From: Vulcanimicrobiota bacterium
Lineage (GTDB): Bacteria > Vulcanimicrobiota > Vulcanimicrobiia > Eremiobacterales > Eremiobacteraceae
NCBI GenBank assembly: GCA_963805945.1
Contig: CAWDVP010000002.1
Coordinates: forward strand, 352,001 to 416,000
Length of the DNA: 64,000 nucleotides
Direction: 5' to 3'
In this document: in pieces, positions 1 through 47,929 of the stretch
Layout: every line of letters begins with the position of its first letter
How positions within the stretch are numbered: position 1 is the first letter of the stretch
Notes under the pieces: model-generated
What the model was told of the DNA's origin: nothing
Databases searched by the model: none
What the model saw: the letters and a program-made list of their open reading frames with translations, nothing else
Made by a program: the position numbers and the translations under genes

Positions 1-117
1 GTTGCCGAAGACGCTTCGCGAGCGCACGACGATGCCGCGCACCAGCCCGAAGTTCTTCGCGACCTTGTAGCCCGGCAGTTCCAGCGCCGTGGTGACCAGC
101 GAATGATCGAAAGCCAT
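1..117 (-). CDS. YbjQ/UPF0145 family protein, N-terminal part (runs off window)
   Basis: ATG at 117 with AAGGAGGT RBS (121-128); translation MAFDHSLVTTALELPGYKVAKNFGLVRGIVVRSRSVFGN matches the YbjQ N-terminus. Confidence 0.8.
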   Translation of the reverse strand, partial: MAFDHSLVTTALELPGYKVAKNFGLVRGIVVRSRSVFGN

Positions 118-199
118 GGTACCTCCTTGGAGCCCCGCGCGTGGGGGTGGGGCCGCTTCCATGAGGTCTGACCGCTACCTTCTGTAGAAGAGGACGAGC

Positions 200-670
200 A
201 TGCTTGAAGCCGATTCGATAGCGCCTTCGATCCCCGTGCCCGACCAGACCGGGACGCCGCGCAGCATCGACGAGTTCCGCGGCGCATGGCTGGTGCTGTG
301 GTTCTATCCGAAAGACCACACGAGCGGCTGAACGAGCGAGGCGTCGCAGTTCCGCGATGCATACGCGCAGTTCACCGCCGCGGGCGCGCAGCTCGTCGGC
401 GTGAGCCGCGATTCTGTGCAGTCCCACGAGTCGTTCCGCCGCGAGCTGTCGCTGCCGTTCCCGCTGCTCGCCGATACCGAGGAGAAGCTATGCCGCGCGT
501 ACGGCGTACTCGTCGAACGCGTCAATGAGGCGGGCGTGAAGTCCATGGGGCTCCAACGCTCGACGTTCCTCATCGATCCGCATGGCGTCATCCGCATGGT
601 GTGGCCGAAGGTGACGGTGCTTGGACACGTCGCCGAGGTGCTCGCCGCGCTCACGGCGCTGCAGGCATGA
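200..670 (+). CDS. bcp: Peroxiredoxin, BCP/PrxQ type, probable selenoprotein (UGA at codon 44)
   Basis: ATG200 reads MLEADSIAP...WLVLWFYPKDHTSG*TSEASQFRD... in frame with ORF 401-670 (GVSRDS, FPLLAD, RSTFLID); TGA 329-331 occupies the PxxxTxxC peroxidatic Cys position. Confidence 0.88.
341..360 (+). promoter_or_regulatory. Putative bacterial SECIS element
   Basis: GCGTCGC-AGTTCC-GCGATGC 7-bp stem (one G-U), apical loop starts 16 nt after UGA, with GU at loop positions 2-3. Confidence 0.7.
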
Positions 671-1235
671 CCGACGCGCCGCGGATGACGTAGCGCAGCT
701 CGCCGTCTCGCATCGTCGCCTCGAGGATGCCTGTGACGCGGACGGAAGCACCGGCGCGCGCGGCCGTCGCGCGCGTTTGCTCGACATCGAAGCCCACCGA
801 CACCGCGTCAGCGGCGCAACACGTCATGACCCGCCGCGACACCGTCGCGGGGCGCTGCCCCTCGCGCGGCGTCCACGCGCCCGTGACCGTGACGGCGCGC
901 TCGAGCATGGCCGTCGGATCTCTGTCGAGCGCATCGAGCAGCGCGAATAGATCGCCCGCGTGCGAGCCGCCCGGCGAGCGCGTGATCACAGGCGCGGGCA
1001 GCGGCGCCTTTGGGAGGATGAGGGCAAGTGCAAGTCCGGCCGCCACCGCGGGAAGCGACATAGTGCCGGAGCGCAGCTCGGGTCGTGGGCTTCCGATCGC
1101 CGAGACGACAAGGCACACGAAGCCGAAAATGGCAACCACGACGCGCGGCATCGCGACGAGCGATCCCGTCGCGTCGATCGCGGCGGCGCCGAGCGCCATA
1201 CCGCCGATGAACGGTGCGACGAAGCGGATGCTCAT
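651..1235 (-). CDS. DUF1980/TIGR03943 (YcgQ-like) membrane protein
   Basis: N-terminal TM helices then VSRRVMTCCAADA motif; ATG1235 overlaps stop of upstream permease (ATGA). Confidence 0.7.
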   Translation of the reverse strand: MSIRFVAPFIGGMALGAAAIDATGSLVAMPRVVVAIFGFVCLVVSAIGSPRPELRSGTMSLPAVAAGLALALILPKAPLPAPVITRSPGGSHAGDLFALLDALDRDPTAMLERAVTVTGAWTPREGQRPATVSRRVMTCCAADAVSVGFDVEQTRATAARAGASVRVTGILEATMRDGELRYVIRGASVMPAAP

Positions 1236-2077
1236 CGCGCGGCGAGCGCGGCCACCGCACAGCCCACGGCGCCGGCGCACGCGCCGAACCACGCGCGCTT
1301 AGCGCCGAAGTGTCTGCGCAGCAGCGACAACTGGCGCACATCCAAGCACTGGCCGGCGATCACGAACGCCGCCTGCGCCGACGCAGAGCCGGTGACGATC
1401 CTCGCGAGGATCGCGTCGGCGGTGGAGCACGGGGAGAGGATGGCGCCGGCGGCGGCGGCGAGCAGCGGTTGGTGCACGCGCACGGCGTGTCCGAAGCACG
1501 TCGCGAAGATCGCACTCGCGATGGCTGCGGGGACGAGCGCCCGCAACCCGGTCTCGAGATGCGACGCGATCTCGCACAGAGCGGCGCCGATCTTCGGTCG
1601 AATGGATTCGATCGCTCCATCCTGCGGGTCGCCACGCCACAAGAGCGCGATCGTGCACGCGGCGACGGCCGCGCCCGCCATGCGGGCGGCGAAGACGTGC
1701 GGACCGAGCACGAGCCAGGTGGCGGCCAGCGCGATCGGATTGCACGCGGCGCCCCACGTCAGCGCGACGCCCGCCAGCCAGCGCGGACAGCGCGCGAGCG
1801 CGGCCGCAAAGCTGTTCATGCTGCAATCGCAGCCGGGCGCGCACATCGCGACGGCGGCCGGTAGCCAGCGCTGCGCGCTGCGGATCCGCTCGAGACTGCA
1901 CCAGGCGGCGACCGCGCCGCAGGCGACGAACGGCCCAGCCTCGAGCATGATAGAAGATGCATAGACGAACGCGCGCCGCGCGTCCGGCAGCCAACGCGCC
2001 GCCTCGAGCTGGTGCGGCGTGAAGAACACGGCCGCGAGGAGCGCGCTTCCCGCGATGAAGAAGGCTGCGCGTCTCAC
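1232..2077 (-). CDS. DUF318/YcgR-like permease
   Basis: Hydrophobic; SIMLEAGPF, APGCDCS, ACNPIAL, LSPCSTADA motifs; start uncertain (GTG2077 chosen). Confidence 0.7.
   Translation of the reverse strand: MRRAAFFIAGSALLAAVFFTPHQLEAARWLPDARRAFVYASSIMLEAGPFVACGAVAAWCSLERIRSAQRWLPAAVAMCAPGCDCSMNSFAAALARCPRWLAGVALTWGAACNPIALAATWLVLGPHVFAARMAGAAVAACTIALLWRGDPQDGAIESIRPKIGAALCEIASHLETGLRALVPAAIASAIFATCFGHAVRVHQPLLAAAAGAILSPCSTADAILARIVTGSASAQAAFVIAGQCLDVRQLSLLRRHFGAKRAWFGACAGAVGCAVAALAAR
1595..1620 (-). repeat. REP-like palindrome copy inside permease CDS
   Basis: Minus strand ATGGAGCGATCGAATCCATTCGACCG, similar to intergenic copies at 16435 and 17894. Confidence 0.55.
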
Positions 2078-2150
2078 ATGAATGCCACGGTTCCATGCCC
2101 TGCGACGCAAAAGGAGGGTTGCCGGGGGCCGTTCACCTATCGAACCCGGT

Positions 2151-3422
2151 GTGAAGCATGCCGCCGCGCCTCGCGGCACTTTTGACGTACTTCCCTCCGA
2201 ATCGCGCCGTTGGCAAGCCCTTGAACGCCGCATCGACGAGCTGTGCTCCCGTTTCGGCTACGCGGAGATCCGCACGCCTATGTTCGAGAGCACCGACGTG
2301 TTCGTGCGGCCGCTGGGCGAGACGAGCGACGTCGTCGATAAGGAGATGTACACGTTCGAGGATCGCGGCGGCCGCAGCATCACGCTGCGTCCGGAATTCA
2401 CCGCGCCGGTCGTGCGCGCAGCGATCGAGCACAACCTGCTGCAGACGCTGCCGCTCAAGCTGTACTATCGCGGTCCGGTCTTCCGTTACGAGCGGCCGCA
2501 GAAGGGCCGCTATCGGCAATCGCATCAATGGGGCGTCGAGTGCTTCGGCGTCGCCGAGCCCGAAGCGGACGCCGAGATCATCGCGATCGGCGTGGCGATA
2601 CTGGACGCCGTCGGCGTGCGCGACCACGAACTGCTGATCAACTCGATGGGCTGCGAGACATGCCGCACCGAGTATCGCGACGCGCTCGTCGCGTATCTTC
2701 ATGCGCGCAAGGACGACCTCAGCGAGGTGAGCCGCGAACGGCTCGAGCGGAATCCGTTGCGCATCCTCGATTCGAAGGACGAGGCGGATCGCCGGGTGCT
2801 CGAAAGCGCGCCCACGATCGACGCGTTCTGGTGCGACGCATGCCGCGCGCATCTCGCAGGCGTACGCGAACTGCTCGACGCGATGGGCATCACGAGCCGG
2901 CTCGATCCGAAGATCGTGCGCGGCTTCGATTACTACACGCGCACCGTCTTCGAATTCACCTCGACCGCCTTGGGTTCGCAAAACGCCATCTGCGGCGGCG
3001 GCCGCTACGACGGCCTGGTGCGATCGATGGGCGGGCCCGCGACGCCCGGCGTCGGTCTCGCGATGGGGATGGAACGCCTGCTCATGCTGGTGGCGACGGC
3101 CGGCAGCAGCGCGCTCGACGACACGCCGCCGCTGGACGTCGCCTTCGTGGCGATCGAGGCGCAAGACGTGCGCGCAATCGTGCCCGTCATGCACGCGCTG
3201 CGCACGCGCGGCATCGCCGCAGACATGGACTACACGCGCCGCAAGCTCGAAAAGCAGATCCGCGCTGCGGGCGAGCGGGGCGCCCGGTTCGCCGTGATCG
3301 TCGGGGGCGATGAGCGCGCGGCCGGCGAAGCGACCATTCAGGACCTCAACACGCGCGAGCGCGAACGCGTCGCGCTTGCAGACGTCGCCGAGGCGGTCGC
3401 CCGCCGCGTGCGCACCTCATAG
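2151..3422 (+). CDS. hisS: Histidyl-tRNA synthetase
   Basis: PRGTFD, LRPEFTA, FRYERPQKGRYRQ, VRGFDYYTRTVFE, GGGRYDGL; GTG2151 start inferred. Confidence 0.97.
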   Translation: MKHAAAPRGTFDVLPSESRRWQALERRIDELCSRFGYAEIRTPMFESTDVFVRPLGETSDVVDKEMYTFEDRGGRSITLRPEFTAPVVRAAIEHNLLQTLPLKLYYRGPVFRYERPQKGRYRQSHQWGVECFGVAEPEADAEIIAIGVAILDAVGVRDHELLINSMGCETCRTEYRDALVAYLHARKDDLSEVSRERLERNPLRILDSKDEADRRVLESAPTIDAFWCDACRAHLAGVRELLDAMGITSRLDPKIVRGFDYYTRTVFEFTSTALGSQNAICGGGRYDGLVRSMGGPATPGVGLAMGMERLLMLVATAGSSALDDTPPLDVAFVAIEAQDVRAIVPVMHALRTRGIAADMDYTRRKLEKQIRAAGERGARFAVIVGGDERAAGEATIQDLNTRERERVALADVAEAVARRVRTS

Positions 3423-4482: not shown

Positions 4483-5087
4483 CGTCCGCGGACGGCGGCG
4501 CGGGGACGAGCCGCATGCGCCGCAGCGCCGCATTCGTGGATCGCGACGGCACGCTCAACGTCGACACCGGCTATCTCAAGACGCCCGATGAGGTCGTGCT
4601 GATCCCCGGCGCCGCCGCGGGCGTCCGCGCGCTCGCGCACGCGGGCTTCGCGGTCGTGGTGGTGTCGAATCAATCCGGCATCGGGCGCGGCTACCTCACG
4701 GAGGCCGACGCCGATCGGGTCGACGCGCGCGTGCGCGAACTGCTCGCGCGCGAAGGCGCGCCGCTCACCGCCATGTACCGCTGCCCTCATCTGCCGGACG
4801 CCGGTTGTGACTGCCGCAAACCGAAGCCGGGCATGCTGACGCGCGCGGCGGCCGAACTCGGTCTCGACCTGCGCGCGTCGTGGATGATCGGCGACAAGGC
4901 GGCTGACATGGCCGCGGGCCGTGCCGCCGGCTGCCGCTGCGTGAGCGTGCCCGGCGCGCCGGCGCATCAGCCGCCGGAAGATCTTTCGGCCGCCCCGCCG
5001 GAGTATCGCGCGGCCGATCTGGCGGACGCCGCGCGCTTCGTCATCGCGCATGCAGGCGCGGTGCGGCCGGCGGAGAGCGCGCGATGA
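4479..5087 (+). CDS. gmhB: D,D-heptose 1,7-bisphosphate phosphatase
   Basis: [30 protein letters not shown]. Confidence 0.93.
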
Positions 5088-6168
5088 GCCGCGCGCAACC
5101 GGCGTGGGTCGCAGACCTGTTGCGCGCCATGCGCGGCAAACGCATCGTGGTGGCCGGCGATATCATGCTCGACGAATGGCTGTGGGGCAGCGTGCGCCGC
5201 ATCTCGCCCGAGGCGCCGGTGCCCGTCGTCGAGGTCAGCTCGCAATCGTTCACCCTGGGCGGCGCCGCGAACGTCGCCAACAACCTCGCGGCGCTCGGCG
5301 CGAAGGTCCGCTTGATCGGCGTCGTGGGCGACTGACGAAGCGGGCGCCCGCACGCTCGAGCTGTGCCGCCTGCTCGACATCGACACGTCGGGCGTGGCGG
5401 TCGCCGCCGCGCGGCCCACGACACAAAAGACGCGCATCGTGGCGCATAACCAGCAGGTCGTGCGCGCCGACCGAGAGGTGACCGGAGAGCTCGACGCGCG
5501 GACGAAAGCGCGGCTCGTGAAGAGCCTGCGCGCGCTGGACGGCGCGATCGACGGCGCGATCGTCTCCGACTACAGCAAGGGGTTGGTGCGCGCGCCGATC
5601 GTCCAGGCGCTCACCGGCCACGCGCGGCGATGCGTCATCACCGGCGATCCGAAGCCCGACAACATCGCGGCCTTCGCGGGCGTGGATTGCATCGCGCCGA
5701 ACGCCGCGGAGGCGGCGAGCGCGGCGGGCATGCCGCTGCTGACGCGACGCGGATCTGTCGCGCGTCGCGAGCCGGCTGCGCGCGCTCGCGCATTGCCGCT
5801 CCGTGCTCATCACGCGCGGTGAATACGGCATGACGCTGTTCTCCGACGAGGTGCGCCGTTCACCGTGCCGGCAGTCGCGCGCCAGGTCTATGACGTCAGC
5901 GGCGCCGGCGACACGGTCATCTCCGCGCTGACGCTCGCGCTCGCAGCCGGAGCGCCGATCCGCCATGCGGTCACTCTGGCGTCGCTGGCGGCGGGCGTAG
6001 TGGTGGAGAAGCTCGGCACGGCGACCGCGACGCCGCGCGAGATCTTGCATTTCGCGGAGCGCGAAGGGGTCGCGCATCCGACCCGTTTCGTCGCCGCGCG
6101 CGCGGCGAGCCGCGCCGCGCCGCACGCGAGCCAAGAAAACTGGGAAAGCCCGTGCGCGCCGCCGCTAA
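5084..6168 (+). CDS. hldA: D-beta-D-heptose 7-phosphate kinase (HldE kinase domain, HldA/RfaE1); several frameshifts, end approximate
   Basis: Fragments [57 protein letters not shown] in different frames. Confidence 0.85.
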
Positions 6169-6641
6169 GATGCTGCCGCGCGAGGAGATCGCGCGCCGCC
6201 TGCCCGCGTTGCGCGAGGTGCGCGGTCCGGTCGTCTTCACCAACGGCGTGTTCGATCTGCTGCACGTCGGCCACGTGCGCTATCTCGAGTTCGCGCGCAG
6301 CCTCGGCGGCGTGCTCGTGGTCGGCGTCAACTCCGACAGCTCGGTGCGCGCGCTCGGACAAAGCGCCCGGCCGGCCGGTGGTGCCGGAGACCGAGCGCGC
6401 GGAGCTCGTAGCGGCGCTCGAAAGCGTCGACTACGTGTGCATCTTCTATGAGACGCGGCCGGACGACACGCTGCGCATCATCAGACCCGACATCCACGTG
6501 AAGAGCTCGAGCTACGCGATCGCCGATCTGCCCGAAGCGCAGACCGTCGCCGAGATCGGCGCCAGCATCGTGCTCGCGCCGCACATCGAAGGACGTTCGA
6601 CCACAGACCTCATCCGCCGCATCGCGGAGAGCCGCGAGTGA
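6152..6641 (+). CDS. hldC: D-beta-D-heptose 1-phosphate adenylyltransferase (HldC/RfaE2); frameshift near 6360
   Basis: [21 protein letters not shown], then [15 protein letters not shown]. Confidence 0.88.
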
Positions 6642-27186: not shown

Positions 27187-27368
27187 AGATCTCCCTGCAG
27201 TGTGCGCCAGTCCGCTAGTGATTGAACCAACACAATCACAACGGGAGCCGATCTCCGAGCCGCTTTGAGCAAGCCCTCCACGAGAGGGAAGCCTGTGTCC
27301 GGCCGGTTGGGCACCCACCTGCGAAGGCAGGTTCAAATCCCCTGCGGGCAACGGCACTTCGGGGCAGT
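27187..27368 (+). ncRNA. ssrS: 6S RNA (ends approximate)
   Basis: CCCTG..GTGTG / CGGCAC..CGGGG closing stem, TTGAACC pairing with GGTTCAA, A/C-rich bubble, GGGAGC and CACCCACCTG motifs; own promoter and terminator. Confidence 0.82.
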
Positions 27369-27370
27369 AC

Positions 27371-29095: not shown

Positions 29096-29566
29096 ATGAA
29101 TAAGAAGATATTTCGCGTCGCCGTCGGCGCCGACCACGCCGGTTTCGCCTACAAGCAGCAGCTCGCCGAACTGCTGCGCCAGATGGGGCACGAGGTCGTG
29201 GACTTCGGCACGTACTCGACCGACCCGGTGGACTACCCGCTCATCGCGTTCAAGGTCGGCGAGGCGGTCGGCGGCGGCGAGTTCGAGCGCGGCGTGCTGT
29301 GTTGCGGCTCGAGCATCGGCATCGCCATCGCCGCCAACAAAGTGCGCGGCGTGCGTGCGGCGCCGGTCGCGGAGCCTTATTCAGCTCGCCTGTCACGCCA
29401 GCATAACGACGCCAACATCATCTGCTTCGCGGAACGGCTCACCGGCTGGGAGATGGTCGTCGAGTGTCTCAACGTCTGGCTCGAGACCGAGGCCGAAGGC
29501 GGTCGCCACGCGCGCCGGGTCGCAGAGCTCAACGATTACGATCCCGACGCCGAGGACAAGGGCTGA
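29096..29566 (+). CDS. rpiB: Ribose-5-phosphate isomerase B
   Basis: [33 protein letters not shown]. Confidence 0.95.
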
Positions 29567-29567
29567 T

Positions 29568-30835
29568 ATGAACGCGCGCACCCTCGAGCAGGCGCTGCTC
29601 GCGACCGCCGATCCGGCGGTCTATGACGCGATTCTCAAAGAAGAAGAGCGCCAGCGCAAGAACCTCGAGCTGATCGCGTCGCGAGAACTACGTCAGCGCG
29701 GCGGTCCTCGAGGCGGCGGGCTGCGTGCTGACCAACAAGTACGCCGAGGGCTATCCCGGCAAGCGCTACTACGGCGGCTGCGAGTACGTCGACGTCGTCG
29801 AGAACCTCGCCATCGAGCGGCTGCAGAAGCTGTTCGGCGCCGAGCACGCCAACGTCCAGCCGCACTCCGGCGCGCAGGCCAACATGGCCGTCTACTTCGC
29901 GGCGCTCAAGCCCGGCGACACGGTGCTGGGCATGAGCCTCGCCCACGGCGGGCACCTCACGCACGGCAGCACGGTCAACTTCTCGCGGCAAGCTCTACAA
30001 CGTCGTCGGCTACGGCGTCGATCCGAAGACCGAGCGCATCGACTACGACGCAGATCGCGACGCTCGCGCAGCGAGCACCAGCCGAAGATGATCGTCGCCG
30101 GGCGCGAGCGCCTATCCGCGCATCATCGACTTCGCAGGCGTTCGCGCGAGATCGCCCACGAGGTCGGGCGCCGTGCTCATGGTCGACATGGCGCACATCG
30201 CCGGCCTGGTCGCCGCCGGGCTGCACCCGAGCCCGGTGCCGCATCGCCGACTTCGTCACGACCACGACGCACAAGACGCTGCGCGGCCCGCGCGGCGGCC
30301 TGGTCCTGTGCGACGGCTGGAGCGCGGCAAGGGTCATCGCCAAGCACGTCTTCCCCGGCATCCAGGGCGGCCCGCTCATGCACGTCATCGCCGCCAAGGC
30401 GGTCGCGTTCGGCGAGGCGCTGCAGCCGGAGTTCAAGGACTACGCGAAGCAGGTCATCGCCAACGCGCAAGACGCTGGCCGAGGCGCTGCAGGGACACGG
30501 CTTGCGCCTCGTCTCCGGCGGCACCGACAACCACCTCATGCTGGTCGACGTCGTCCGTGCGCGGCCTCACCGGCAAGGACGCCGAGGCCTAGCTCGACGA
30601 GGTCGGCATCACCGTCAACAAGAACACGATCCCCTTCGACAAGAACCCGCCGATCGTCACGAGCGGCATCCGCGTCGGCACGCCGGCGATCACCACGCGC
30701 GGCATGCGCGAGGAGCACATGCGCGAGATCGCCGACATCATGGGCGCGGCGATGGACGACATCGGCGCGCGGGCGCGCCTCGACCAGCTGCGCGATCGCG
30801 TCTTCGAGCTGACGTCGCACTTCGACGTGCCGTAG
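29568..30835 (+). CDS. glyA: Serine hydroxymethyltransferase; many frameshifts
   Basis: [72 protein letters not shown] across frames. Confidence 0.95.
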
Positions 30836-31319: not shown

Positions 31320-32383
31320 TGGCGCCGCCGCTGCTCGCGCTGCTGCCCACCGCGCTGGCGAGCCCGATCCGTTTCGACGTCAACATCTACTGGCTGTGCG
31401 CGATCACCTTCGCCCTGAGCCTTGCCGCCTGTCTGCTCATCACGCCGCTCGTCATCCGCATGGCGGTGCGCCTCGGGCACTTCGACGTCCCCGACGAAGA
31501 GCGCCACGTGCACACCGAGCCGACGCCGCGCATCGGCGGCATCGCGATCTACCTGAGCTTCATGCTGTCGCTGTTCGCCGTGCTCAACGTCGCGCTCACC
31601 AACAACAGCGTCATCACGCGCTATCTGAGCGACCACGACACCGCGCGCATCATCGGCTTGCTGTTCGGCGGCACGCTCATGATGGGCGTGGGCCTGTGGG
31701 ACGACGTCATGGGCATGCGGCCGCGCAACAAGTTCTTGGCGCAGTTCGTCGTGGCGTCGATCGCCGTCGTGCTCTACGGCTTCACCATCTACCATTTGCG
31801 CCTGCCGCACTTCGGGCTGGTCGAACTCGGCTGGTTCGGGATACCGTTCTCGCTGTTCTGGTATCTGGGCATGGTCAACGCCATCAACTTCCTCGACGGG
31901 TTGGACGGACTCGTCGCCGGCTACACCGTCATCGCCGCGGTCGCGCTCACCGCGATCTCGCTGCTCAAGGACCAGTACCTCGTCGCGATCACCGCGTGCG
32001 CGCTCGCCGGCGCGGCGGCGGGCTTCCTGCCGTACAACTTCAGCCGCGCGCGCATCTTCATGGGCGACGGCGGCTCGCTCTTCATCGGCTTCGTGCTGGC
32101 GACCGTCGGCGTGATGGGCACGGAGAAGCAGGCCGTCGCGATCTCGCTCGTCGTGCCGCTGCTCATCCTCGCGCTCCCGATCCTCGACACCGCCAAGGTG
32201 ATCGTGCGCCGCCTCCACAAAGGCGCGCCGCTGTCGATCGCCGACCGCGAGCACGTGCACCATCAGCTGCTCGACCTCGGTCTGAGCCAGCGCCAGGTCG
32301 TCGTGCTCATCTACGCGGTGTGCTGCGTGCTGAGCGGGATCGCCATCGTGCTGTCGCTGCCCAAGGGACCGCACGTCTTTTGA
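31319..32383 (+). CDS. WecA/TagO-type undecaprenyl-phosphate GlcNAc-1-P transferase (MraY family)
   Basis: HTEPTPRIGG, GLWDD, NAINFLDGLDGL, IFMGDGGS, DREHVHH. Confidence 0.92.
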   Translation: MAPPLLALLPTALASPIRFDVNIYWLCAITFALSLAACLLITPLVIRMAVRLGHFDVPDEERHVHTEPTPRIGGIAIYLSFMLSLFAVLNVALTNNSVITRYLSDHDTARIIGLLFGGTLMMGVGLWDDVMGMRPRNKFLAQFVVASIAVVLYGFTIYHLRLPHFGLVELGWFGIPFSLFWYLGMVNAINFLDGLDGLVAGYTVIAAVALTAISLLKDQYLVAITACALAGAAAGFLPYNFSRARIFMGDGGSLFIGFVLATVGVMGTEKQAVAISLVVPLLILALPILDTAKVIVRRLHKGAPLSIADREHVHHQLLDLGLSQRQVVVLIYAVCCVLSGIAIVLSLPKGPHVF

Positions 32384-33551
32384 CGCGCCCGCTGCGCGTC
32401 GCGGTCGTCTTCGGCACGCGGCCCGACGCGATCAAGATGGCGCCGGTGGCGCACGCGCTGACGAGCGACCGGCGTTTCGAGTGCATCACCATCTCCACCG
32501 GACAGCATCGCGAGATGCTCGACGAGGTGCTCGCGCTCTTCGACATCGTGCCCGAGCACGATCTCGAGGTGATGACCGACGAGCAGTCGCTCACCGACGT
32601 CACCACGCGCGTGCTCGAGCGGCTCTCCGCCGTGCTGGCGGACGCCAAGCCCGAGGTCGTGCTGGTGCATGGCGACACCACCAGCTCCACCGCCTCCGCG
32701 CTCGCCGCGTACTATAAGAAGATCCCCGTCGGCCACGTCGAGGCGGGCCTGCGCACCGACACCATCTACGAGCCGTTCCCGGAGGAGATGAACCGCCGGC
32801 TCACCGGCGCGCTCGCCACCCATCATTTCGCGCCGACGCCGACGGCCAAGCAGAACCTGCTGCGCGAAGGCAAGGCGGCGCGCGACATCCACGTCACCGG
32901 CAACACCGTCATCGACGCGTTCCTCTGGGTGCACGCGCGCACCACGCCAGAGGACGTGCCCGCGGTCGAGACGCCGCGGCTCGCGTTCGTCGAGGCGCAT
33001 CGCCGCGAGAACCTCGGCGAGCCGCTCGAGGCGATCTGCCGCGCGCTGCGCACGGTCGCCGAGCGCCACTCCGACCTCTCCATCCTGTGGCCGGTGCATC
33101 CCAACCCGGCGGTGTCCGAAGTCGCGCGCCGTATCCTCTCGAGCAGCGAGCGCGTGCGGCTCGTGGCGCCGATGACCTACCGTAAGCTCGTCGGCGCCGA
33201 TCGGACGCGCCACGCTCGTCGCGACCGACTCCGGCGGACTGCAAGAAGAGGCGCCTTGCTTGGGCAAACCGGTGCTCGTGTTGCGGCGGGTCACCGAGCG
33301 GCCTGAGGGAGTGGAAGCGGGCACGCTGCGCTTCAGTGGGCACCGACGAGAAGACGATCGTCGCCGCCTTCGACGAGCTGCTCGACGATCAAGCGGCGTA
33401 TCAACGCATGGCGCGCGCGGCGAATCCATATGGCGACGGGCGCGCGGCGGAGCGGATCCGCGACGCGCTCATCGCGCTATATCGCGAAGGCGCGATGCCC
33501 GGCGAATTCGATCCGTCGCTGCCGCCGACGCTTCCCTCAGCGGCGCGGTGA
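32380..33551 (+). CDS. wecB: UDP-GlcNAc 2-epimerase (non-hydrolysing); frameshifts about 33200 and 33335
   Basis: [60 protein letters not shown]. Confidence 0.93.
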
Positions 33552-38345: not shown

Positions 38346-39204
38346 ATGCCGACACTCCGCCAGCTGCGCGACCGCGTCAAGTCGCTCAAGAACACCCAGC
38401 AGATCACCCGCGCCATGAAGATGGTCGCGGGCGCGAGGATCCGCCGGGCGGAGCTCGACATGCGCGCAGCGCGGCCGTACGCTGCGGCGATCGGCGAGAT
38501 GCTGACGCAGCTCGCGTCAGCCGGCGGCAGCAGCGCGAACCATCCGCTGCTCGAGACGCGCGAGGTGAGGACCCGCGCGATCCTGCTCATGACCGCCGAC
38601 AAGGGTCTGTGCGGCTCGTTCAACTCGAATCTCGTGCGTGCGGCGCTCAAGTCGATCGAAGGCGATGGCAGATCCAAAGCTCTATCTCGTCGGCACCAAG
38701 GGCCGGGTGCAGCTGCAGCGCAGATATCCGCCCGCCGCGTTCTGGCCGCTGCTGAGCAAGAGCTTCGGCGAACTCGCCAAGGAAGTCGCGATCCAAGGTG
38801 AGCGACGATTTCTTGTCGGGGGCGGTCGATTCGGTGACGCTCGTGTCGAGCCGTTTCGTCTCGACCATGGTGCAGCGGCCGACGCGCGATCCAATTGCTG
38901 CCGATCGCGACCGCGAGCAGCCGAGAAGCGGGATGCCGGCAAGAACTCGTTCGAGTTCGAGCCCGACGTCGCGGCGGTGCTGGCGTCGCTGCTGCCGAAA
39001 TATCTCGAGTTCACCATCTTCCAGGCGCTGCTCGAGACGCAGGCGTCGGAATTCGCGGCACGGCTCATCGCGATGACGAGCGCCACGGACAACGCGGGCA
39101 AGCTCATCGACGAGATCACCATGCTCATGAACCAGACGCGCCAGGCGGCGATCACCAAGGAGATCTTGGAGATCGTCGGCGGCGCCGAAGCGCTGAAAGG
39201 CTAG
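38346..39204 (+). CDS. atpG: F1 subunit gamma; frameshifts
   Basis: QITRAMKMV, DKGLCGSFN, SEFAARLIAM, RQAAITKEILEIVGG. Confidence 0.95.
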
Positions 39205-43805: not shown

Positions 43806-44423
43806 ATGCACGTAGTGCGCGCCGGCGGAACGCCCGACGCTGCGACGCTGCACGAGGCCGCCACATGTATCCGCACGGGCGGCCTGCTGATCTTCCCGAC
43901 CGAGACCGTCTACGGCATCGGGTGCGCGCCCGACGACGAGCGCGCGGTCGCCGCGCTCTTCCGCGCGAAGCGCCGACCAGCCGACAAGCCGCTTGCGATC
44001 CATCTCGCACGCGCGGCGGATGCCGAGGTGTTCGCGCTCGCGTTACCGGAGAGCGCGCGCCGCATCATGCGATCGTTGTGGCCCGGACCGGTCGCCATCG
44101 TCGTCGAGCGCGCCCCGACACGCGCAGCCGCCGCCGCATGCGGCGGCGCCACGATCTCGCTGCGCTGCCCGGACGACGCGGCATGTCGTGCGATCCTCGA
44201 GGCGACGGGGCCGCTCGCCGCCACGTCGGCCAATCTCGCCAGCGAGCCGGCGTTCCTGGGAGATGAAGCGGGCATCGCGTCGCTGCCGGACGCGGCGCTC
44301 GCGATCATCACAGGGCCCACCCGATTGCGGCAAGAAAGCACGGTCGTTGATTGTACCGGCGAGATCCCACGTATCCTGCGGCACGGCGCGGTCGACGAAG
44401 CGGCCATCGCCGCTGCGCGCTAA
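43806..44423 (+). CDS. tsaC: L-threonylcarbamoyladenylate synthase (TsaC/Sua5)
   Basis: FPTETVYG, KRRPADKPL, WPGP, TSAN, STVVD. Confidence 0.93.
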   Translation: MHVVRAGGTPDAATLHEAATCIRTGGLLIFPTETVYGIGCAPDDERAVAALFRAKRRPADKPLAIHLARAADAEVFALALPESARRIMRSLWPGPVAIVVERAPTRAAAAACGGATISLRCPDDAACRAILEATGPLAATSANLASEPAFLGDEAGIASLPDAALAIITGPTRLRQESTVVDCTGEIPRILRHGAVDEAAIAAAR

Positions 44424-44436
44424 GCCCCGCCCTCCG

Positions 44437-46293
44437 ATGACCACCACGCGCTGGATCGCGACCGCGCTGGCGCTCGCCGTCGCCACCTGCCTCTCGCCTG
44501 TGCCGGCGCGCGCCGACCTGCAGATCGGGCGCTTCTCGCTCGAGTTCCGGAATTCGAACTACAATCTGAAGACCGGCGACATCGTGCTCACCGGCGGGGT
44601 CAGTGGCAAGGGACCGGACGGCGACTTCCGCGCGGACCGCGCGTTCGGCAACCGGGAGAAGCAAGAGATCACGTTGGTCGGCGGCGTGCAGGCGCATCGC
44701 AAGAGCGGCACGCAACCGATCACGCTGCGCAGCGATACCGCCTTCATCGACGAGCGGGCGAAGACGTACGTGGCGTCCGGCAACGCGAGCGCACAGGTCG
44801 GGCAGCGCATCATGAACGCGGACGAGATGCGTTTCGACGATGCCGCGCACGTCTTCACGCTGAGCGGATCCGTGAGCATCGTCGAACCGCCGGGACGCAC
44901 GCTGCTGACGGGCCTGCTCATCTATCACGACGACACCGGCGACATCAGCTCACCCGGCCCGTTGAGCGGCATCGCCGAGAACGGTGACTTCCGCGCCGAC
45001 CGCGCGCAGGGCAACGTGCGCACCAATCTCATGACGCTGTCCGGCGGCGTCGTGCTGCACTCAGGCGCCGTCGCGAGTGGGCCGTCGAAGGAGCCGATCG
45101 CGCTGTACGCCGACACGCTGCACATCGACGGCGCCGCCAAGCGCATGCAGGCGAGCGGCGACGTCCGCATCGAGCAGGGCACGCAGACGCTGAGCGCGCC
45201 GCAGCTCGACCTCGACAACGCGACGGGCGAGATGCGCATGAGCGGCGGTGTGCACGGCGCGCAGCCGCCCGACCGCACATTCGACACCGCAGAGATCAGC
45301 TACAACCTCAACTCGGGCGAGATAACGGTGCCCAAAGCCGTGCGCGGCACATCGCGCAACGGCGACTTCTCCGCCGGTTCGGCGCACGGCAACCTCAAAG
45401 CGCACGTGTACGATCTGGTCGGCGACGCCGTCGTGCACTCGAGCGGCAAGGCCACGAAGGGCACGCCGACGACGCCGACCACGTTGAGCGCGCAGCACAT
45501 CCATATCGACGAGGCGAACAAATCGTATCGGGCGGAGGGCGGGGCGGAGGTGGCGCAAGGCGATCGCACGGTGAGCGCGCCGCTGATGACGTTCGACGAC
45601 AAGATCCACGTCGTCAAGATGACCGGCGGCGTCCACGCGACGCAGCTGCCGAATCGCAGCGCCGACACCGCCGAGGTCATCTATCATTCCGACAGCGGAG
45701 ATGTGTCTGCGCCCGCGCACGTGTCCGGCCGCTCGCCGACCGATTCGTTCTCCGCGGATCGCGCGCTCGGCAACACCAAGAAGAACGTCTACGATCTGCT
45801 CGGCAACGTGGTGTTGCGCCGGCAGAACCCCACCGACAAAGACCCGAGCGTGATGACCGCGAGCGACCTGCACATCGACGGCAATGCCAAGACTTACACC
45901 GCGACGGGCAATCCGAAGGTGACGCAAGGTCCGCGCACGATGACCGGCAAGGTGATCAGCCTCAACGACACGACCCACCTCATGCACGTGAGCGGCGGGG
46001 TGCATGTGGAAGCGCCGCAGGGCCGTTCCTTCAACACGCCCGAGCTCACCTACAATCTCCAGAGCGACGACTTCAAGATGCTCGGCGGCATCACCGCGCT
46101 CTTCCCGCTCGGCAAGCCGAGCCCGACGCCGACGCCCTTCGCGTCGCCGAGCAGCGACCTCGCGCCGCAAGCGCCGTCCCCGTTCGCCAACGGCGGCATC
46201 CCCTCGCAATTCGCGTCGCCCGCGCCGTCGCCGTCGCCCACCGCGTCGCCGCCACCGACGATCGCACCATCACCAAGCGCGGCCCCGCACTAG
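44437..46293 (+). CDS. Secreted protein with four tandem LptA/OstA-like repeats and Pro/Ser-rich tail
   Basis: Signal peptide (ARA-D); repeats anchored at GDFRADRAxGN-like motifs with L.AD.L.ID..A.G.V...QG pattern. Confidence 0.75.
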   Translation: MTTTRWIATALALAVATCLSPVPARADLQIGRFSLEFRNSNYNLKTGDIVLTGGVSGKGPDGDFRADRAFGNREKQEITLVGGVQAHRKSGTQPITLRSDTAFIDERAKTYVASGNASAQVGQRIMNADEMRFDDAAHVFTLSGSVSIVEPPGRTLLTGLLIYHDDTGDISSPGPLSGIAENGDFRADRAQGNVRTNLMTLSGGVVLHSGAVASGPSKEPIALYADTLHIDGAAKRMQASGDVRIEQGTQTLSAPQLDLDNATGEMRMSGGVHGAQPPDRTFDTAEISYNLNSGEITVPKAVRGTSRNGDFSAGSAHGNLKAHVYDLVGDAVVHSSGKATKGTPTTPTTLSAQHIHIDEANKSYRAEGGAEVAQGDRTVSAPLMTFDDKIHVVKMTGGVHATQLPNRSADTAEVIYHSDSGDVSAPAHVSGRSPTDSFSADRALGNTKKNVYDLLGNVVLRRQNPTDKDPSVMTASDLHIDGNAKTYTATGNPKVTQGPRTMTGKVISLNDTTHLMHVSGGVHVEAPQGRSFNTPELTYNLQSDDFKMLGGITALFPLGKPSPTPTPFASPSSDLAPQAPSPFANGGIPSQFASPAPSPSPTASPPPTIAPSPSAAPH

Positions 46294-46295
46294 GC

Positions 46296-46502
46296 ATGAC
46301 GAGCGAAGGGACAGCACGGCCGACGAAATCGCGCTGCGAGCGCTGCGGTGTCGCGTTCGGCGCACACGCGCAAGCCCAAGCATGCGGCTACGGCTGCACG
46401 TTTTGCGAAGCGTGCACGCGCGCGATGAACGCGGTGTGCCCGAACTGCGCGGGCGCGCTTGTGCCGGTGACAATCATCAGCAAAGGACCCTCTTCACGAT
46501 GA
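46296..46502 (+). CDS. DUF1272 family Cys-rich protein
   Basis: CERC..CGYGCTFCEAC..VCPNCAGALV. Confidence 0.8.
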   Translation: MTSEGTARPTKSRCERCGVAFGAHAQAQACGYGCTFCEACTRAMNAVCPNCAGALVPVTIISKGPSSR

Positions 46503-47377
46503 GCTTCTTCCTAGCAGGCGTGCGTGCTCGGTTCGCCGTCACGCTCGTCTTCGGTCTCGGCTTCGCCGCAGCGCTGTGCACCGCGTCGGCGAGCGCAGCC
46601 GTCGAGACGCCGTCCGCCACGCCGCCGCCCGCGATGAGCTTGTCCGATGAAGACCTGCCATCCCCAAGCCATGAAAGCCCACTGGATCCGAGCGAATGGT
46701 TCTCTATCGAAGACGAGGCGATGCCGAGCTACGACGGCATGACGGGCGCCGGCAACACGATGAACCTGCGCGCGCAGATCCCGATCGGTCACGATCTCCT
46801 ACCGATTCTTGGCCGGTTGACCAGGTTGCAGCTTATCAAATTCAAACTGCCATACCAGTTCTCGTCGCCGTCGCAGTCGAGTCCGGGACTCGGCGACACC
46901 ACTCTCGTCGGCCTGACATATCTCGGAAGACGCGATTTCAAGTGGACGATCGGCCCGTCGTTCAAACTACCCACCGCGTCGCAGATGTCGCTTGGCTCCG
47001 GCAAGTGGTCGGTCGGGCCTGCAGGCAGCTACGCCTACCGGCATGGCGATACCGAGATGGGCATCTACACGCAAAACTTCTTCTCGTTCGCCGGCCCCTC
47101 ATCGCGCAAAGCGGTGTCGCAAACAGAATTCCAGCCGAGTCTCGCCTTCGGGCTTGGGCACGGCTGGAGCGTCGGCACATCGTACATGATGTTCAAATAC
47201 AATTGGGAGAAGCCGGCGTGGGAGAACGTGCCGCTGGGCATCCGTTTTGCGAAGAAGTTCTCGCTGGGCGCTGGACGCATGGACGCCGGCCTCGAGGCCG
47301 AGAAGAACCTCACCTTCTACAAGGGCCAGCCTGACATGACCTACCGCATCAACTTCAAATACCGACCCAAACACTGA
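46499..47377 (+). CDS. Secreted/outer-membrane beta-barrel-like hypothetical (MetA-pathway/phenol-degradation-like)
   Basis: Signal peptide; GLGD, LPTA...LGSGKWSVGP, alternating aromatic strands. Confidence 0.6.
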   Translation: MSFFLAGVRARFAVTLVFGLGFAAALCTASASAAVETPSATPPPAMSLSDEDLPSPSHESPLDPSEWFSIEDEAMPSYDGMTGAGNTMNLRAQIPIGHDLLPILGRLTRLQLIKFKLPYQFSSPSQSSPGLGDTTLVGLTYLGRRDFKWTIGPSFKLPTASQMSLGSGKWSVGPAGSYAYRHGDTEMGIYTQNFFSFAGPSSRKAVSQTEFQPSLAFGLGHGWSVGTSYMMFKYNWEKPAWENVPLGIRFAKKFSLGAGRMDAGLEAEKNLTFYKGQPDMTYRINFKYRPKH

Positions 47378-47379
47378 CC

Positions 47380-47838
47380 ATGCCGATAAGGCCGGTGCAA
47401 GCGCGCGACGCGGAGGCATGGCTGGCGATGCGGGCCCGCCTGTGGCCCGCGGCGGACGCCGGCGAGCTGGCCAGAGAGGCGCGCGGATTCGCCGCCGGTG
47501 GTGAGAAAGGGATCCTGGACGCGGTCTTCCTCGCCGAAGACGATCGAGCGCGGCCGCTCGGTTTCCTGGAGCTTTCCGTGCGCGCTTTTTCGGACGGCTG
47601 CGACTCCATGCCGGTGCCGCACGTGGAAGGCTGGTATGTCGAAGTCTCCGCGCGCCGCCAGGGCTTCGGGCGGGCGCTGGTGCGCGCCGCCGAGGACTGG
47701 GCGCGTGCTCGGGGGTTCACCGAACTCGCTTCAGATGCGGAACTCGACAACGCCGCGGCCCAATGCGCCCATGACAGGTGCGGATTCGAGGAGGTCGACC
47801 GGCTCGTCAAGTTCCGGAAGAGGCTGTTTCCACGATGA
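47380..47838 (+). CDS. AAC(6')-I-like GNAT acetyltransferase
   Basis: WLAMRARLWP, ELSVR..DGC, VEGWYV, RRQGFG, ELASDAELDN, GFEE..LVKFRK. Confidence 0.85.
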   Translation: MPIRPVQARDAEAWLAMRARLWPAADAGELAREARGFAAGGEKGILDAVFLAEDDRARPLGFLELSVRAFSDGCDSMPVPHVEGWYVEVSARRQGFGRALVRAAEDWARARGFTELASDAELDNAAAQCAHDRCGFEEVDRLVKFRKRLFPR

Positions 47839-47929
47839 AGAAATCAGGCGGATAGTCGCGTAACACAACGCGCTATGGTATCGTTACAGGGCACGGGAGC
47901 ATTATTGTTGCTCTAGGGGGGATCGTCAC

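What the first reader, a model, noticed from the sequence alone, without database searches (positions are those of the whole stretch)
200..670. Selenocysteine peroxiredoxin (BCP/PrxQ) hidden by an in-frame UGA, with SECIS-like hairpin
Seen: ATG200 to TGA668-670 gives a full 156-codon BCP whose only interruption is TGA329-331 at the peroxidatic Cys (FYPKDHTSG-U-T). A 7-bp hairpin with AGUUCC loop begins its loop 16 nt downstream. Known: Sec-Prx occurs in bacteria, and bacterial SECIS elements lie just 3' of the UGA with G near the loop start. Inference: the host decodes Sec. No CxxxxC resolving Cys follows, so this may be a 1-Sec enzyme. The window's other errors are mostly indels, so a substitution exactly here plus a hairpin is unlikely to be noise.
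Basis: partly seen in the sequence, partly recalled or inferred. Interest (0 to 1): 0.75.

Follow-up and report, generated by a model that had tools for sequence, protein, structure and literature searches.

The report
Selenocysteine PrxQ peroxiredoxin in Eremiobacterota
This is a real peroxide-detoxifying enzyme gene whose catalytic cysteine codon has been replaced by a UGA that most likely encodes selenocysteine, a known kind of enzyme found here in a soil bacterial phylum where gene callers cut it into two fragments.

Summary
ATG200 to TGA668-670 is a 156-codon PrxQ/BCP-type peroxiredoxin. Its only interruption is TGA329-331, at the peroxidatic Cys position (PxxxTxxU).

The UGA is not an assembly error.
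- A syntenic orthologue in another Eremiobacterota genome (L001, 72% aa identity) has TGA at the same codon.
- 31 distinct database proteins in 7 clusters are N-terminal fragments that all end at ...FYPKD[H/F/N]TSG, the residue before the UGA.
- Sequence after the UGA is under purifying selection (dN/dS 0.31).
- TGA is also an ordinary terminator in this window (16 of 37 genes).

The hairpin fits the published bacterial SECIS model: 7-bp stem, 6-nt loop AGUUCC, 16-nt spacing. Its 23-nt core is identical in both genomes. It is weaker evidence than it looks, because 16% of synonymous recodings of the same peptide give an equally stable hairpin.

selA, selB, selC and selD could not be checked.

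Sec-peroxiredoxins with a TxxU motif are already known, so this is a new member of a known kind. The Sec forms make one clade beside one Cys form. No searchable paper links Eremiobacterota with selenocysteine.

The parts
200..670 (+). Sec-PrxQ (BCP-type peroxiredoxin) gene: 156 codons plus the terminator TGA668-670
   Evidence: one AhpC-TSA match spans the UGA (125.7 bits). The best NCBIfam model is PrxQ NF053650 (125.9 bits). The best solved relative is 5enu_A, E 1.5e-41.
189..194 (+). Shine-Dalgarno-like AGAGGA, 5 nt upstream of ATG200
   Evidence: Read directly from the sequence. The in-frame TAG185-187 excludes an earlier start. 27 of the 31 N-terminal fragment records begin at the equivalent Met; 2 begin one or 18 residues upstream and 2 start with Leu at that position.
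329..331 (+). In-frame UGA at the peroxidatic position (P36-xxx-T40-xx-U44), inferred to be a Sec codon
   Evidence: It aligns with the Cys of GCT in all 13 full-length homologues of alignment A1 and in the solved PrxQ chains. L001 has TGA at the same codon, 6130-6132. 79 of the 80 fetched loci have TGC or TGT there.
329..374 (+). SECIS-like stem-loop starting at the UGA: lower helix 329-333/370-374, middle helix 336-338/364-366, upper helix below
   Evidence: MFE -21.4 kcal/mol. L001 folds likewise at -17.3, with U.G replacing U-A at the base pair of the UGA's U.
341..360 (+). Apical hairpin of the SECIS-like element: 7-bp stem and 6-nt loop AGUUCC (348-353), with G then U at loop positions 2-3
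   Evidence: Hairpin energy is -10.5 kcal/mol and spacing is 16 nt, so all four constraints of the bSECIS model in PMC13188914 Fig. 2 are met. The 23-nt core 338-360 is 100% identical in L001, as are only 2 of 445 23-nt windows of the gene.
491..493 (+). Codon of Cys98, the only Cys in the product besides U44; nearly invariant in the family
   Evidence: Alignment A1 lists C98 as conserved in 90% or more of rows. It aligns with a Cys in the solved Burkholderia and Xanthomonas chains. Any role as a resolving residue is untested.

Best explanation
The gene encodes a thioredoxin-fold peroxiredoxin of the PrxQ/BCP type. In it the peroxidatic cysteine has been replaced by selenocysteine, giving the motif PxxxTxxU.

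During translation, UGA329-331 is read as Sec instead of stop. The mRNA immediately 3' of it folds into a stem-loop (329-374) whose apical loop carries G-U 16 nt downstream. This is the bacterial SECIS arrangement, which recruits SelB.GTP.Sec-tRNA(Sec) to the ribosome. The full 156-residue enzyme then reduces peroxides through a selenolate/selenenic-acid cycle at U44. It would be recycled by a thiol reductant such as thioredoxin, either directly (1-Sec mechanism) or through Cys98.

Shown here:
- The UGA lies at the catalytic codon.
- It is conserved in relatives.
- The sequence downstream of it is under purifying selection.
- The hairpin fits the SECIS model.
- The Sec forms make a single clade next to Cys forms.

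Inferred, not shown: that Sec rather than another residue is inserted, that SelB binds this hairpin, that the host has selA/B/C/D, and the recycling route.
For: 1. Position. U44 aligns with the catalytic Cys of the GCT motif in all 13 full-length homologues of alignment A1 and in the solved PrxQ chains. One AhpC-TSA match spans the UGA.

2. Not an error. L001 is a contig of a MAG titled Candidatus Eremiobacteraeota. Its flanks are collinear with the window at 72.7-76.4% nt identity, and it has TGA at the same codon.

3. Fragment records. The 'shorter' protein search returned 22 hits, 7 of them 43-aa proteins. Their 7 clusters hold 31 distinct sequences. 29 of 31 are exactly 43 aa, and all 31 end FYPKD[H/F/N]TSG. 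They come from NCBI, ENA, JGI/IMG, Logan and two smaller collections. Matching C-terminal fragments of 74-108 aa exist at 67-91% identity. In four cases the two halves share the same longest-contig length.

4. Translated past the UGA. Window versus L001 aligns without gaps over 156 codons. Nei-Gojobori dN/dS is 0.10 for codons 1-43 and 0.31 for codons 45-156.

5. Not a genome-wide recoding. 16 of 37 Pfam-supported genes in the window end in TGA, including this one.

6. SECIS-like element. All four constraints of the model are met. The 23-nt core is identical in L001 while dS across the gene is about 0.9. Of 79 Cys-form loci, 0 have an equally stable hairpin, 3 pass the loose model, and the lowest 52-nt MFE is -15.1, against -21.4 and -17.3 for the two Sec forms.

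7. Precedent. Prx with TxxU is an established bacterial selenoprotein family. It had 43 sequences in the Sargasso Sea set under COG1225 and 5 inferred Cys->Sec conversions, and it is listed in the 2026 inventory.

8. Phylogeny. In a 50-row tree, the 9 Sec or Sec-fragment rows form one group (SH-aLRT 92). That group is sister to the Cys form P0002 (96) and sits inside the Cys forms.
Against: - No selA, selB, selD or tRNA-Sec lies in the 64-kb window, and no sel gene was found among 8 Pfam-scanned ORFs of the 12.5-kb L001 locus. L001 was not scanned for tRNAs. The rest of either genome could not be searched.
- No second selenoprotein gene is in the window. The in-frame-TGA scan gave 3 candidates, and the other two are artefacts.
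- The hairpin largely follows from the peptide and the GC-rich codon usage. Of 5000 synonymous recodings, 867 pass the model, 807 are at least as stable, and 494 reach the 52-nt MFE.
- On dinucleotide shuffles the fold scores only z = -1.84.
- Only two DNA sequences of the Sec form could be read, so there is no real covariation test.
- For the other 29 fragment records (the window's own and L001's set aside), only the ORF end is known, not which stop codon it is.
- No Rfam family matches the hairpin.
- The assembly carries many indel-type breaks, and one of them creates a false in-frame TGA at 5820.
Confidence: 0.86

Rival explanations
1. Sequencing or assembly error: the true codon is TGC or TGT and the gene is an ordinary Cys-PrxQ.
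For: The window carries many frame breaks in housekeeping genes (glyA, atpG, hldE-like, ADH, wecB). One false in-frame TGA arises from a locally shifted frame at 5820.
Against: - The residues on both sides of U44 align without any local frame disturbance.
- L001, from a different organism and assembly, has the same TGA.
- 31 distinct N-terminal fragments from several sequence collections all stop at the same residue.
- The window's visible errors are indels, not substitutions.
Confidence: 0.01
2. Pseudogene: a nonsense mutation inactivated the peroxiredoxin, and the two halves are decaying remnants.
For: Gene callers report two fragments. No Sec machinery was seen in the sequence available.
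Against: - The stop sits at exactly the catalytic codon across 7 clusters that are 74-98% identical to the window's N-terminal fragment.
- No other stop or frameshift occurs in either full DNA copy.
- dN/dS is 0.31 downstream of the stop while dS is about 0.76 there.
- The C-terminal halves stay intact in every fragment seen.
Confidence: 0.03
3. The UGA is read through without the Sec system, for example by near-cognate insertion of Cys or Trp or by a lineage-specific suppressor. The product would be a Cys, Trp or other variant, or a low-yield enzyme.
For: Conservation shows only that the downstream part is translated, not which residue goes in. The sel genes were not verified. The hairpin is not significant once the peptide is fixed.
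Against: - A UGA kept at the one codon where Sec can replace Cys, with Cys in all other homologues (79 of 80 loci), is the classical Sec/Cys signature used to predict selenoproteins (PMC13188914, section 6 passages).
- TGA serves as a normal terminator in 16 of 37 genes.
- The hairpin has the spacing and loop G-U expected for SelB, and its synonymous sites are frozen between the two genomes.
Confidence: 0.08
4. Two separate small proteins: a 43-aa peptide and an 84-112-aa C-terminal protein are each made on purpose.
For: Databases hold both as separate gene calls.
Against: - The C-terminal calls start at different positions with different start codons, a sign of gene-caller choice and not a conserved start. 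Their first residues are V, L or M, placed 11 to 48 residues after U44.
- Neither half alone is a complete thioredoxin fold.
- The Pfam match runs across the junction as one stretch.
Confidence: 0.01

Closest known systems
Sec-containing peroxiredoxin (Prx, TxxU motif), a predicted bacterial selenoprotein family (Genome Biol 2005 PMC1088965; Genome Biol 2006 PMC1794560; 2026 inventory PMC13188914)
   Same: PF00578 domain, Sec at the peroxidatic position in a TxxU motif, a SECIS directly 3' of the UGA inside the ORF, and origin by Cys->Sec conversion. The Sargasso set files its 43 Sec-Prx sequences under COG1225, which I recall to be the Bcp/PrxQ COG.
   Different: The lineage is Eremiobacterota. 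No paper in the searchable library holds both 'Eremiobacter...' and 'selenocysteine'. The local motif is TSGU where the Cys homologues mostly have TPGC. The organisms tabulated in 2006 are mostly anaerobes. I did not compare sequences with the published Sec-Prx examples.
PrxU, the selenocysteine peroxiredoxin modelled by NCBIfam NF040737 (peroxi_PrxU). That it was first described in Eubacterium acidaminophilum is recalled, not from a call.
   Same: A peroxiredoxin with Sec at the peroxidatic position.
   Different: It is a different Prx subfamily. The window's protein scores 65.3 bits against a cut-off of 270 and covers only part of the 233-position model, whereas PrxQ models score best.
Solved Cys-PrxQ/BCP structures: 5enu (labelled AhpC/TSA family) and the 'bacterioferritin comigratory protein' chains 3gkk and 5iiz. 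That these are from Burkholderia and Xanthomonas campestris is recalled; the call gives only molecule names.
   Same: Full-length alignment (residues 3-154 and 7-153) at E 1.5e-41 and about 3e-37. The same FYPKDxTxG-C/U-T active site, the conserved Arg in QRSTF and the conserved Cys98 equivalent are present.
   Different: They have Cys where this protein has Sec. The chains 5iox and 5iph differ (C versus S) at a position that aligns with R80 here; I recall that position as the alpha-3 resolving Cys (C84). This protein therefore lacks that resolving Cys as well as the CP+5 one.
Bacterial SECIS consensus (bSECISearch model, as summarised in PMC13188914 section 5 and Fig. 2)
   Same: Apical loop of 3-9 nt (6 here), upper stem of 4-16 bp (7; 8 in L001), G in the first two loop positions followed by U, spacing of 16-37 nt (16), and MFE <= -7.5 (hairpin -10.5, whole element -21.4).
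   Different: The spacing is at the lower limit. The loop AGUUCC does not fit the 'mostly' sub-pattern in which N1 and N2 pair. SelB binding is untested. The model is permissive: 16.7% of all TGAs in this window pass it.

Membership tests
Peroxiredoxin, AhpC/TSA superfamily (PF00578) | Domain match above Pfam's gathering score | tested here: met
   125.7 bits against a cut-off of 26; residues 7-133 cover profile 4-123 of 124.
Peroxiredoxin, AhpC/TSA superfamily (PF00578) | Active-site PxxxTxxC/U motif plus the conserved Arg | tested here: met
   P36-K-D-H-T40-S-G-U44. R120 is invariant in alignment A1. The motif as PxxxTxxU is stated in PMC13188914.
PrxQ/BCP subfamily | Best match to PrxQ/BCP models and structures over other Prx subfamilies | tested here: met
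   The top NCBIfam rows are PrxQ NF053650 (125.9 bits) and thiol peroxidase PRK09437 (94 bits); AhpC scores 61.7 and PrxU 65.3. 8 of the top 9 PDB hits are labelled bacterioferritin comigratory protein.
PrxQ/BCP subfamily | Reaches the curated equivalog cut-off of an NCBIfam PrxQ model | tested here: not met
   125.9 < 260 (NF053650) and 94 < 140 (PRK09437). It is a PrxQ-like clade of its own, not an equivalog of the modelled ones.
Atypical 2-Cys PrxQ | Resolving Cys at CP+5 (CxxxxC) or in helix alpha-3 | tested here: not met
   The CP+5 residue is S49. The position that differs (C versus S) between the solved chains 5iox and 5iph, recalled as their resolving Cys, aligns with R80. The only other Cys is C98. 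This points to a 1-Sec type, or to an untested role for C98.
Bacterial selenoprotein (Sec-Prx, TxxU) | In-frame UGA aligned with Cys of homologues (a Sec/Cys pair) | tested here: met
   79 of 80 loci have TGC or TGT at that codon.
Bacterial selenoprotein (Sec-Prx, TxxU) | UGA-containing orthologues in other organisms | tested here: met
   L001 has TGA at 6130-6132. 31 fragment sequences end at the same residue, though their stop codon was not seen.
Bacterial selenoprotein (Sec-Prx, TxxU) | bSECIS element 3' of the UGA | tested here: met
   All four model constraints are met in both DNA copies. Caveat: 16% of synonymous recodings do as well, and no covariation test was possible with 2 sequences.
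Bacterial selenoprotein (Sec-Prx, TxxU) | Host genome carries selA, selB, selC (tRNA-Sec) and selD | not testable with these tools
   None is in the window, and no sel gene was found in the Pfam-scanned ORFs of L001.
Bacterial selenoprotein (Sec-Prx, TxxU) | Selenium actually incorporated at the UGA | not testable with these tools
   Needs 75Se labelling or mass spectrometry.
PrxU (NF040737) | Reaches the model's cut-off | tested here: not met
   65.3 bits against 270.

The most novel reading that the evidence does not exclude
Eremiobacterota (WPS-2) is a soil phylum that no searchable paper connects with selenocysteine. It may carry the Sec-decoding trait and keep it for a peroxide-scavenging 1-Sec PrxQ. 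That enzyme would have arisen once, by a Cys->Sec switch in a gene whose coding sequence (…EASQFRDA…) already tended to fold into a SECIS-like hairpin. On this view a latent hairpin made the switch easy. This lineage would then provide a natural Sec/Cys pair (the Sec clade versus P0002) for measuring what Sec buys a peroxiredoxin in organisms that I recall as largely aerobic.
Probability: 0.35. Interest if true: 0.5.

Novelty: new member of a known kind. Interest (0 to 1): 0.35.

Why it matters
- **Annotation.** Gene callers split this gene into a 43-aa stub and a fragment of 74-108 aa in at least 31 distinct N-terminal records from NCBI, ENA, JGI/IMG, Logan and two smaller collections. These organisms' peroxide-defence repertoire and their use of selenium are therefore both under-reported.
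- **Biology.** A conserved Sec-PrxQ implies that part of Eremiobacterota decodes Sec. The 2026 review says aerobic bacteria rarely retain selenoproteins, so a Sec-dependent peroxidase in this phylum would be a useful counter-example, if the organisms are indeed aerobic. That was not tested here.
- **Enzymology.** The clade has a close Cys sister (P0002, 69% identity). This gives a natural pair for comparing Sec and Cys in a PrxQ that lacks both known resolving-Cys positions.
- **Limit.** None of this changes what is known about how Sec-peroxiredoxins work.

Tried and rejected
- **tRNA scan of the window:** 0 genes, so no tRNA-Sec here.
- **Rfam:** at gathering score only 6S RNA matched. Around the hairpin at E <= 10 there was only a chance miRNA-family match on the minus strand, E 0.33, and no SECIS family.
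- **sel genes:** Pfam scans of 98 + 18 ORFs of the window and L001 found no SelA, SelB or SelD domains. The Aminotran_5 gene at 53575-54831 is a generic cysteine-desulfurase-type hit and was not taken as evidence.
- **Scan for further in-frame TGAs** flanked by coding-like sequence gave 3 candidates in the window and 0 in L001. L001's own Prx TGA fell below the scan's composition filter.
  - One candidate is the target.
  - TGA5820 lies in a locally shifted frame of the hldE-like PfkB gene. The true frame reads ...[13 protein letters not shown]....
  - The candidate at 54021 on the minus strand is the antisense shadow of the aminotransferase gene.
- **Genome-wide UGA reassignment:** rejected, because TGA ends 16 of 37 genes.
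- **Hairpin significance conditioned on the peptide:** not significant. It is kept as evidence against over-weighting the hairpin.
- **Literature searches.** Supplements are not covered by these searches, and the groundwater-MAG selenoproteome study cited in PMC13188914 could not be found in the library.
  - 'Eremiobacter' + 'selenocysteine': 0 papers.
  - 'WPS-2' + 'selenocysteine': 1 irrelevant paper.
  - 'Eremiobacter' + 'selen': 28 papers. The one I opened, PMC11484240, mentions selenium only for Cyanobacteria.
  - 'selenoprotein' + 'bacterioferritin comigratory protein' + 'UGA': 2 papers held the terms, 1 was listed and it was irrelevant.
- **Not attempted:** structure prediction, complex prediction, the representative-protein search and the atlas search. 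None could answer the open question about the sel genes.

Full report
**1.

The + strand from ATG200 to TGA668-670 is 156 codons with one internal stop, TGA329-331, in the context FYPKDHTSG-[UGA]-TSEASQF. An in-frame TAG at 185-187 makes ATG200 the first possible start. An AGAGGA stretch lies 5 nt upstream of it.

Read through, the product gives a single Pfam AhpC-TSA match that runs across the UGA: residues 7-133, profile 4-123 of 124, 125.7 bits, E 1.3e-36. The best NCBIfam models are PrxQ (NF053650, 125.9 bits) and thiol peroxidase PRK09437 (94 bits). Both scores are below those models' equivalog cut-offs. The Sec-peroxiredoxin model PrxU scores only 65.3 bits against a cut-off of 270.

Against solved structures the best matches are PrxQ/BCP chains: 5enu at E 1.5e-41, and the 'bacterioferritin comigratory protein' chains 3gkk and 5iiz at about 3e-37. 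In these alignments U44 aligns with the Cys of FYPKDxTPGCT. The motif is P36-xxx-T40-xx-U44, and the Arg of QRSTF (R120) is invariant in alignment A1.

**2. The hairpin**

The fold of 329-380 pairs the UGA itself (UGAAC with GUUCA at 370-374). A 3-bp helix follows, then a 7-bp apical helix (341-347 with 354-360) closed by the loop AGUUCC (348-353). The MFE is -21.4 kcal/mol, z = -1.84, and 10 of 200 shuffles fold at least as well.

The bSECIS model summarised in PMC13188914 (section 5 and the Fig. 2 legend, read) has four constraints, and all are met:

| Constraint | Model | Here |
|---|---|---|
| Apical loop | 3-9 nt | 6 nt |
| Upper stem | 4-16 bp | 7 bp |
| UGA-to-loop spacing | 16-37 nt | 16 nt |
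| MFE | <= -7.5 kcal/mol | -10.5 for the hairpin alone |

The model is permissive, and I tested how much it is worth in three ways.
- Among all 1359 TGA triplets of the window (both strands), 227 pass my simple contiguous-stem version of the model, 84 have a hairpin at least as stable, and 27 are as stable with G[G/U].
- Among the 79 Cys-form loci fetched, 3 pass and 0 are as stable. Their 52-nt MFEs average -10.3, with a minimum of -15.1.
- When the peptide is kept and codons are redrawn from the window's own usage, 867 of 5000 recodings pass, 807 are at least as stable, and 494 reach the observed 52-nt MFE.

The hairpin is therefore to a large degree what this peptide gives in a 68% G+C genome. 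It is consistent with a SECIS but is not strong evidence on its own.

**3. What carries the case is conservation of the UGA**

The one genome-contig scan returned 80 loci. One of them, L001, is a close relative. Its record is titled Candidatus Eremiobacteraeota. It shares 113 of 156 identical residues with the window in a gapless alignment. Its flanks are collinear at 72.7% identity over 652 nt and 76.4% over 4290 nt, with the gene order ybjQ-like / prx / DUF1980 + permease / hisS.

L001 has TGA at the same codon (6130-6132). The other 79 loci have TGC (74) or TGT (5).

Nei-Gojobori dN/dS between the two copies is 0.10 for codons 1-43 and 0.31 for codons 45-156, with dS of about 0.76 downstream. 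The part after the UGA is therefore maintained as protein.

The 23-nt core of the hairpin (338-360) is identical in both copies. Only 2 of 445 23-nt windows in the gene are. Elsewhere only 55 of 97 degenerate codons with the same amino acid are identical. In L001 the upper helix gains an eighth pair, and the pair made by the U of the UGA changes from U-A to U.G.

**4. Many more copies show the same break**

A search for shorter proteins gave 22 hits, of which 7 are 43-aa proteins. All 7 align to residues 1-43 and end at ...TSG.

Their seven 90%-identity clusters hold 31 distinct sequences. 29 are exactly 43 aa; one is 44 aa and one 61 aa, through earlier starts. All 31 end in FYPKD[H/F/N]TSG (20 H, 6 F, 5 N). 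One of them, P0146, is identical to the window's own fragment. Another, P0134, is identical to L001's.

C-terminal fragments of 74-108 aa at 67-91% identity start at varying positions after the UGA (P0012, P0005, P0123, P0124, P0168-P0171). In four cases an N-terminal and a C-terminal fragment list the same longest-contig length (69755, 12154, 11081, 3338). I take this to mean the two halves are neighbours on one contig.

For these records I saw only where the ORF ends, not which stop codon ends it.

**5. Other readings**

- **Substitution error.** Excluded by sections 3 and 4.
- **Pseudogene.** It does not fit a stop confined to the catalytic codon together with intact, selected halves.
- **Genome-wide reassignment of UGA.** Excluded, because TGA terminates 16 of 37 Pfam-supported genes of the window (TAA 11, TAG 10).
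- **Read-through by something other than the Sec system.** This cannot be excluded here, since the residue inserted is not observable and the sel genes could not be looked for.

On the last point, the window has no tRNA and no SelA, SelB or SelD domains. L001's Pfam-scanned ORFs show rnc, smc, purH and ybjQ upstream.

**6. The organism**

The window is chromosomal. It carries hisS, aspS, an F1Fo ATP synthase operon, murA, mreB, alaS and LPS genes.

Its AtpD is 93% and 88% identical to proteins named Candidatus Eremiobacteraeota bacterium. It is 75% identical to ones named Candidatus Xenobia, Vulcanimicrobiaceae and Candidatus Velthaea. The Cys-type PrxQ homologues at 54-58% identity are named Candidatus Baltobacteraceae, Cybelea and Tumulicola. 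Together with L001's title, this places the window in Eremiobacterota.

**7. Origin of the Sec form**

I built a quick maximum-likelihood tree of 50 rows. It holds the two full Sec genes, 7 C-terminal fragments and 41 Cys forms: P0002 and the hits among P0003-P0044 of at least 140 aa. P0045-P0121 were left out.

The 9 Sec rows form one group (SH-aLRT 92). That group is sister to the Cys form P0002 (96), and the pair is nested among Cys forms. One change of state suffices. For 7 of the 9 rows the label 'Sec' rests on truncation alone.

This fits the repeated Cys->Sec conversions reported for Prx: 5 events in Table 1 of PMC1794560 (passages seen).

**8. Mechanism and the '1-Sec' idea**

There is no Cys at CP+5; that residue is S49. 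Two solved 'bacterioferritin comigratory protein' chains, 5iox and 5iph, differ (C versus S) at one position. I recall that position as the alpha-3 resolving Cys (C84) of Xanthomonas campestris BCP. It aligns with R80 here.

The Cys relatives in A1 also lack a Cys at CP+5. The only other Cys is C98, which is conserved in 90% or more of A1 rows and present in the solved chains. I recall that the equivalent Cys of E. coli BCP is not needed for catalysis, but I did not test this.

The most likely cycle is:
1. The selenolate of U44 attacks the peroxide.
2. A selenenic acid forms.
3. An external thiol reductant such as thioredoxin reduces it directly.

Every step of this cycle is inferred.

**9. 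Comparison with what is known**

Sec-peroxiredoxins with a TxxU motif are long established as a predicted bacterial selenoprotein family.
- The Sargasso Sea set held 43 sequences, filed under COG1225 (passages). I recall COG1225 to be the Bcp/PrxQ COG.
- 12 genes were counted in the 2006 genome survey.
- The family appears in the 2026 inventory as Prx, PF00578, TxxU.

This is therefore a new member of a known kind. What appears new is the lineage, and the fact that public gene calls split the gene. No searchable paper holds both 'Eremiobacter...' and 'selenocysteine', but supplements and non-open papers were not searched.

**10. Verdict**

The remaining gap is direct evidence for the Sec machinery and for selenium at residue 44. 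Interest is moderate to low for a specialist.

Noticed in passing
window 4907-6638 (+), TGA at 5820-5822: The hldE-like PfkB kinase gene is broken over frames. It contains an apparent in-frame TGA that is really an out-of-frame stop inside a locally shifted segment; the neighbouring frame reads the expected ...[13 protein letters not shown]... This is an indel artefact or a pseudogene, not a Sec codon.
   Followed up: yes
window 29355-30832 (glyA), 38346-39201 (atpG), 50623-51500 (Zn-ADH), 31396-33548 (wecB-like epimerase): Housekeeping genes are split over two or three reading frames: SHMT profile parts 43-197, 222-310 and 351-399 lie in different frames, and ATP synthase gamma parts 1-103 and 110-285 do too. 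This suggests indel errors of a long-read assembly or real decay.
   Followed up: partly
window 27189-27369 (+): A full-length 6S (SsrS) RNA: Rfam RF00013, 90.3 bits against a gathering score of 46.4, E 1.3e-16.
   Followed up: no
window 654-2257 (-); L001 6878-8334 (-): A conserved pair of a DUF1980_C protein and an ArsP_1-type predicted permease lies directly downstream of the prx gene on the opposite strand in both genomes. Its function is unknown.
   Followed up: no
window 2-127 (-); L001 5633-6010 (-): A divergently transcribed YbjQ_1 ('putative heavy-metal-binding') gene lies upstream of prx in both genomes. The intergenic region of about 80 nt probably holds both promoters.
   Followed up: no
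window 43891-46290 (+): An 800-codon open frame combines LptC-related, LptA/LptD_N and OstA-like matches. It may be a fused or misjoined LPS-transport gene, or a long stop-free stretch spanning several genes.
   Followed up: no
window 46004-50427 (+): Three long ORFs (457, 463 and 445 aa) have no Pfam match at E <= 1e-4. This region also has the lowest G+C of the window, 0.64.
   Followed up: no
protein hits P0003, P0004, P0007 (Cys-type PrxQ homologues; P0007's nearest named homologue, by E-value rank, is the Candidatus Baltobacteraceae record P0021): Some Cys-type relatives already encode ...TSEASQFRD..., the same peptide that forms the hairpin in the Sec forms. The hairpin potential may therefore predate the Cys->Sec switch. 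Their DNA could not be fetched.
   Followed up: no
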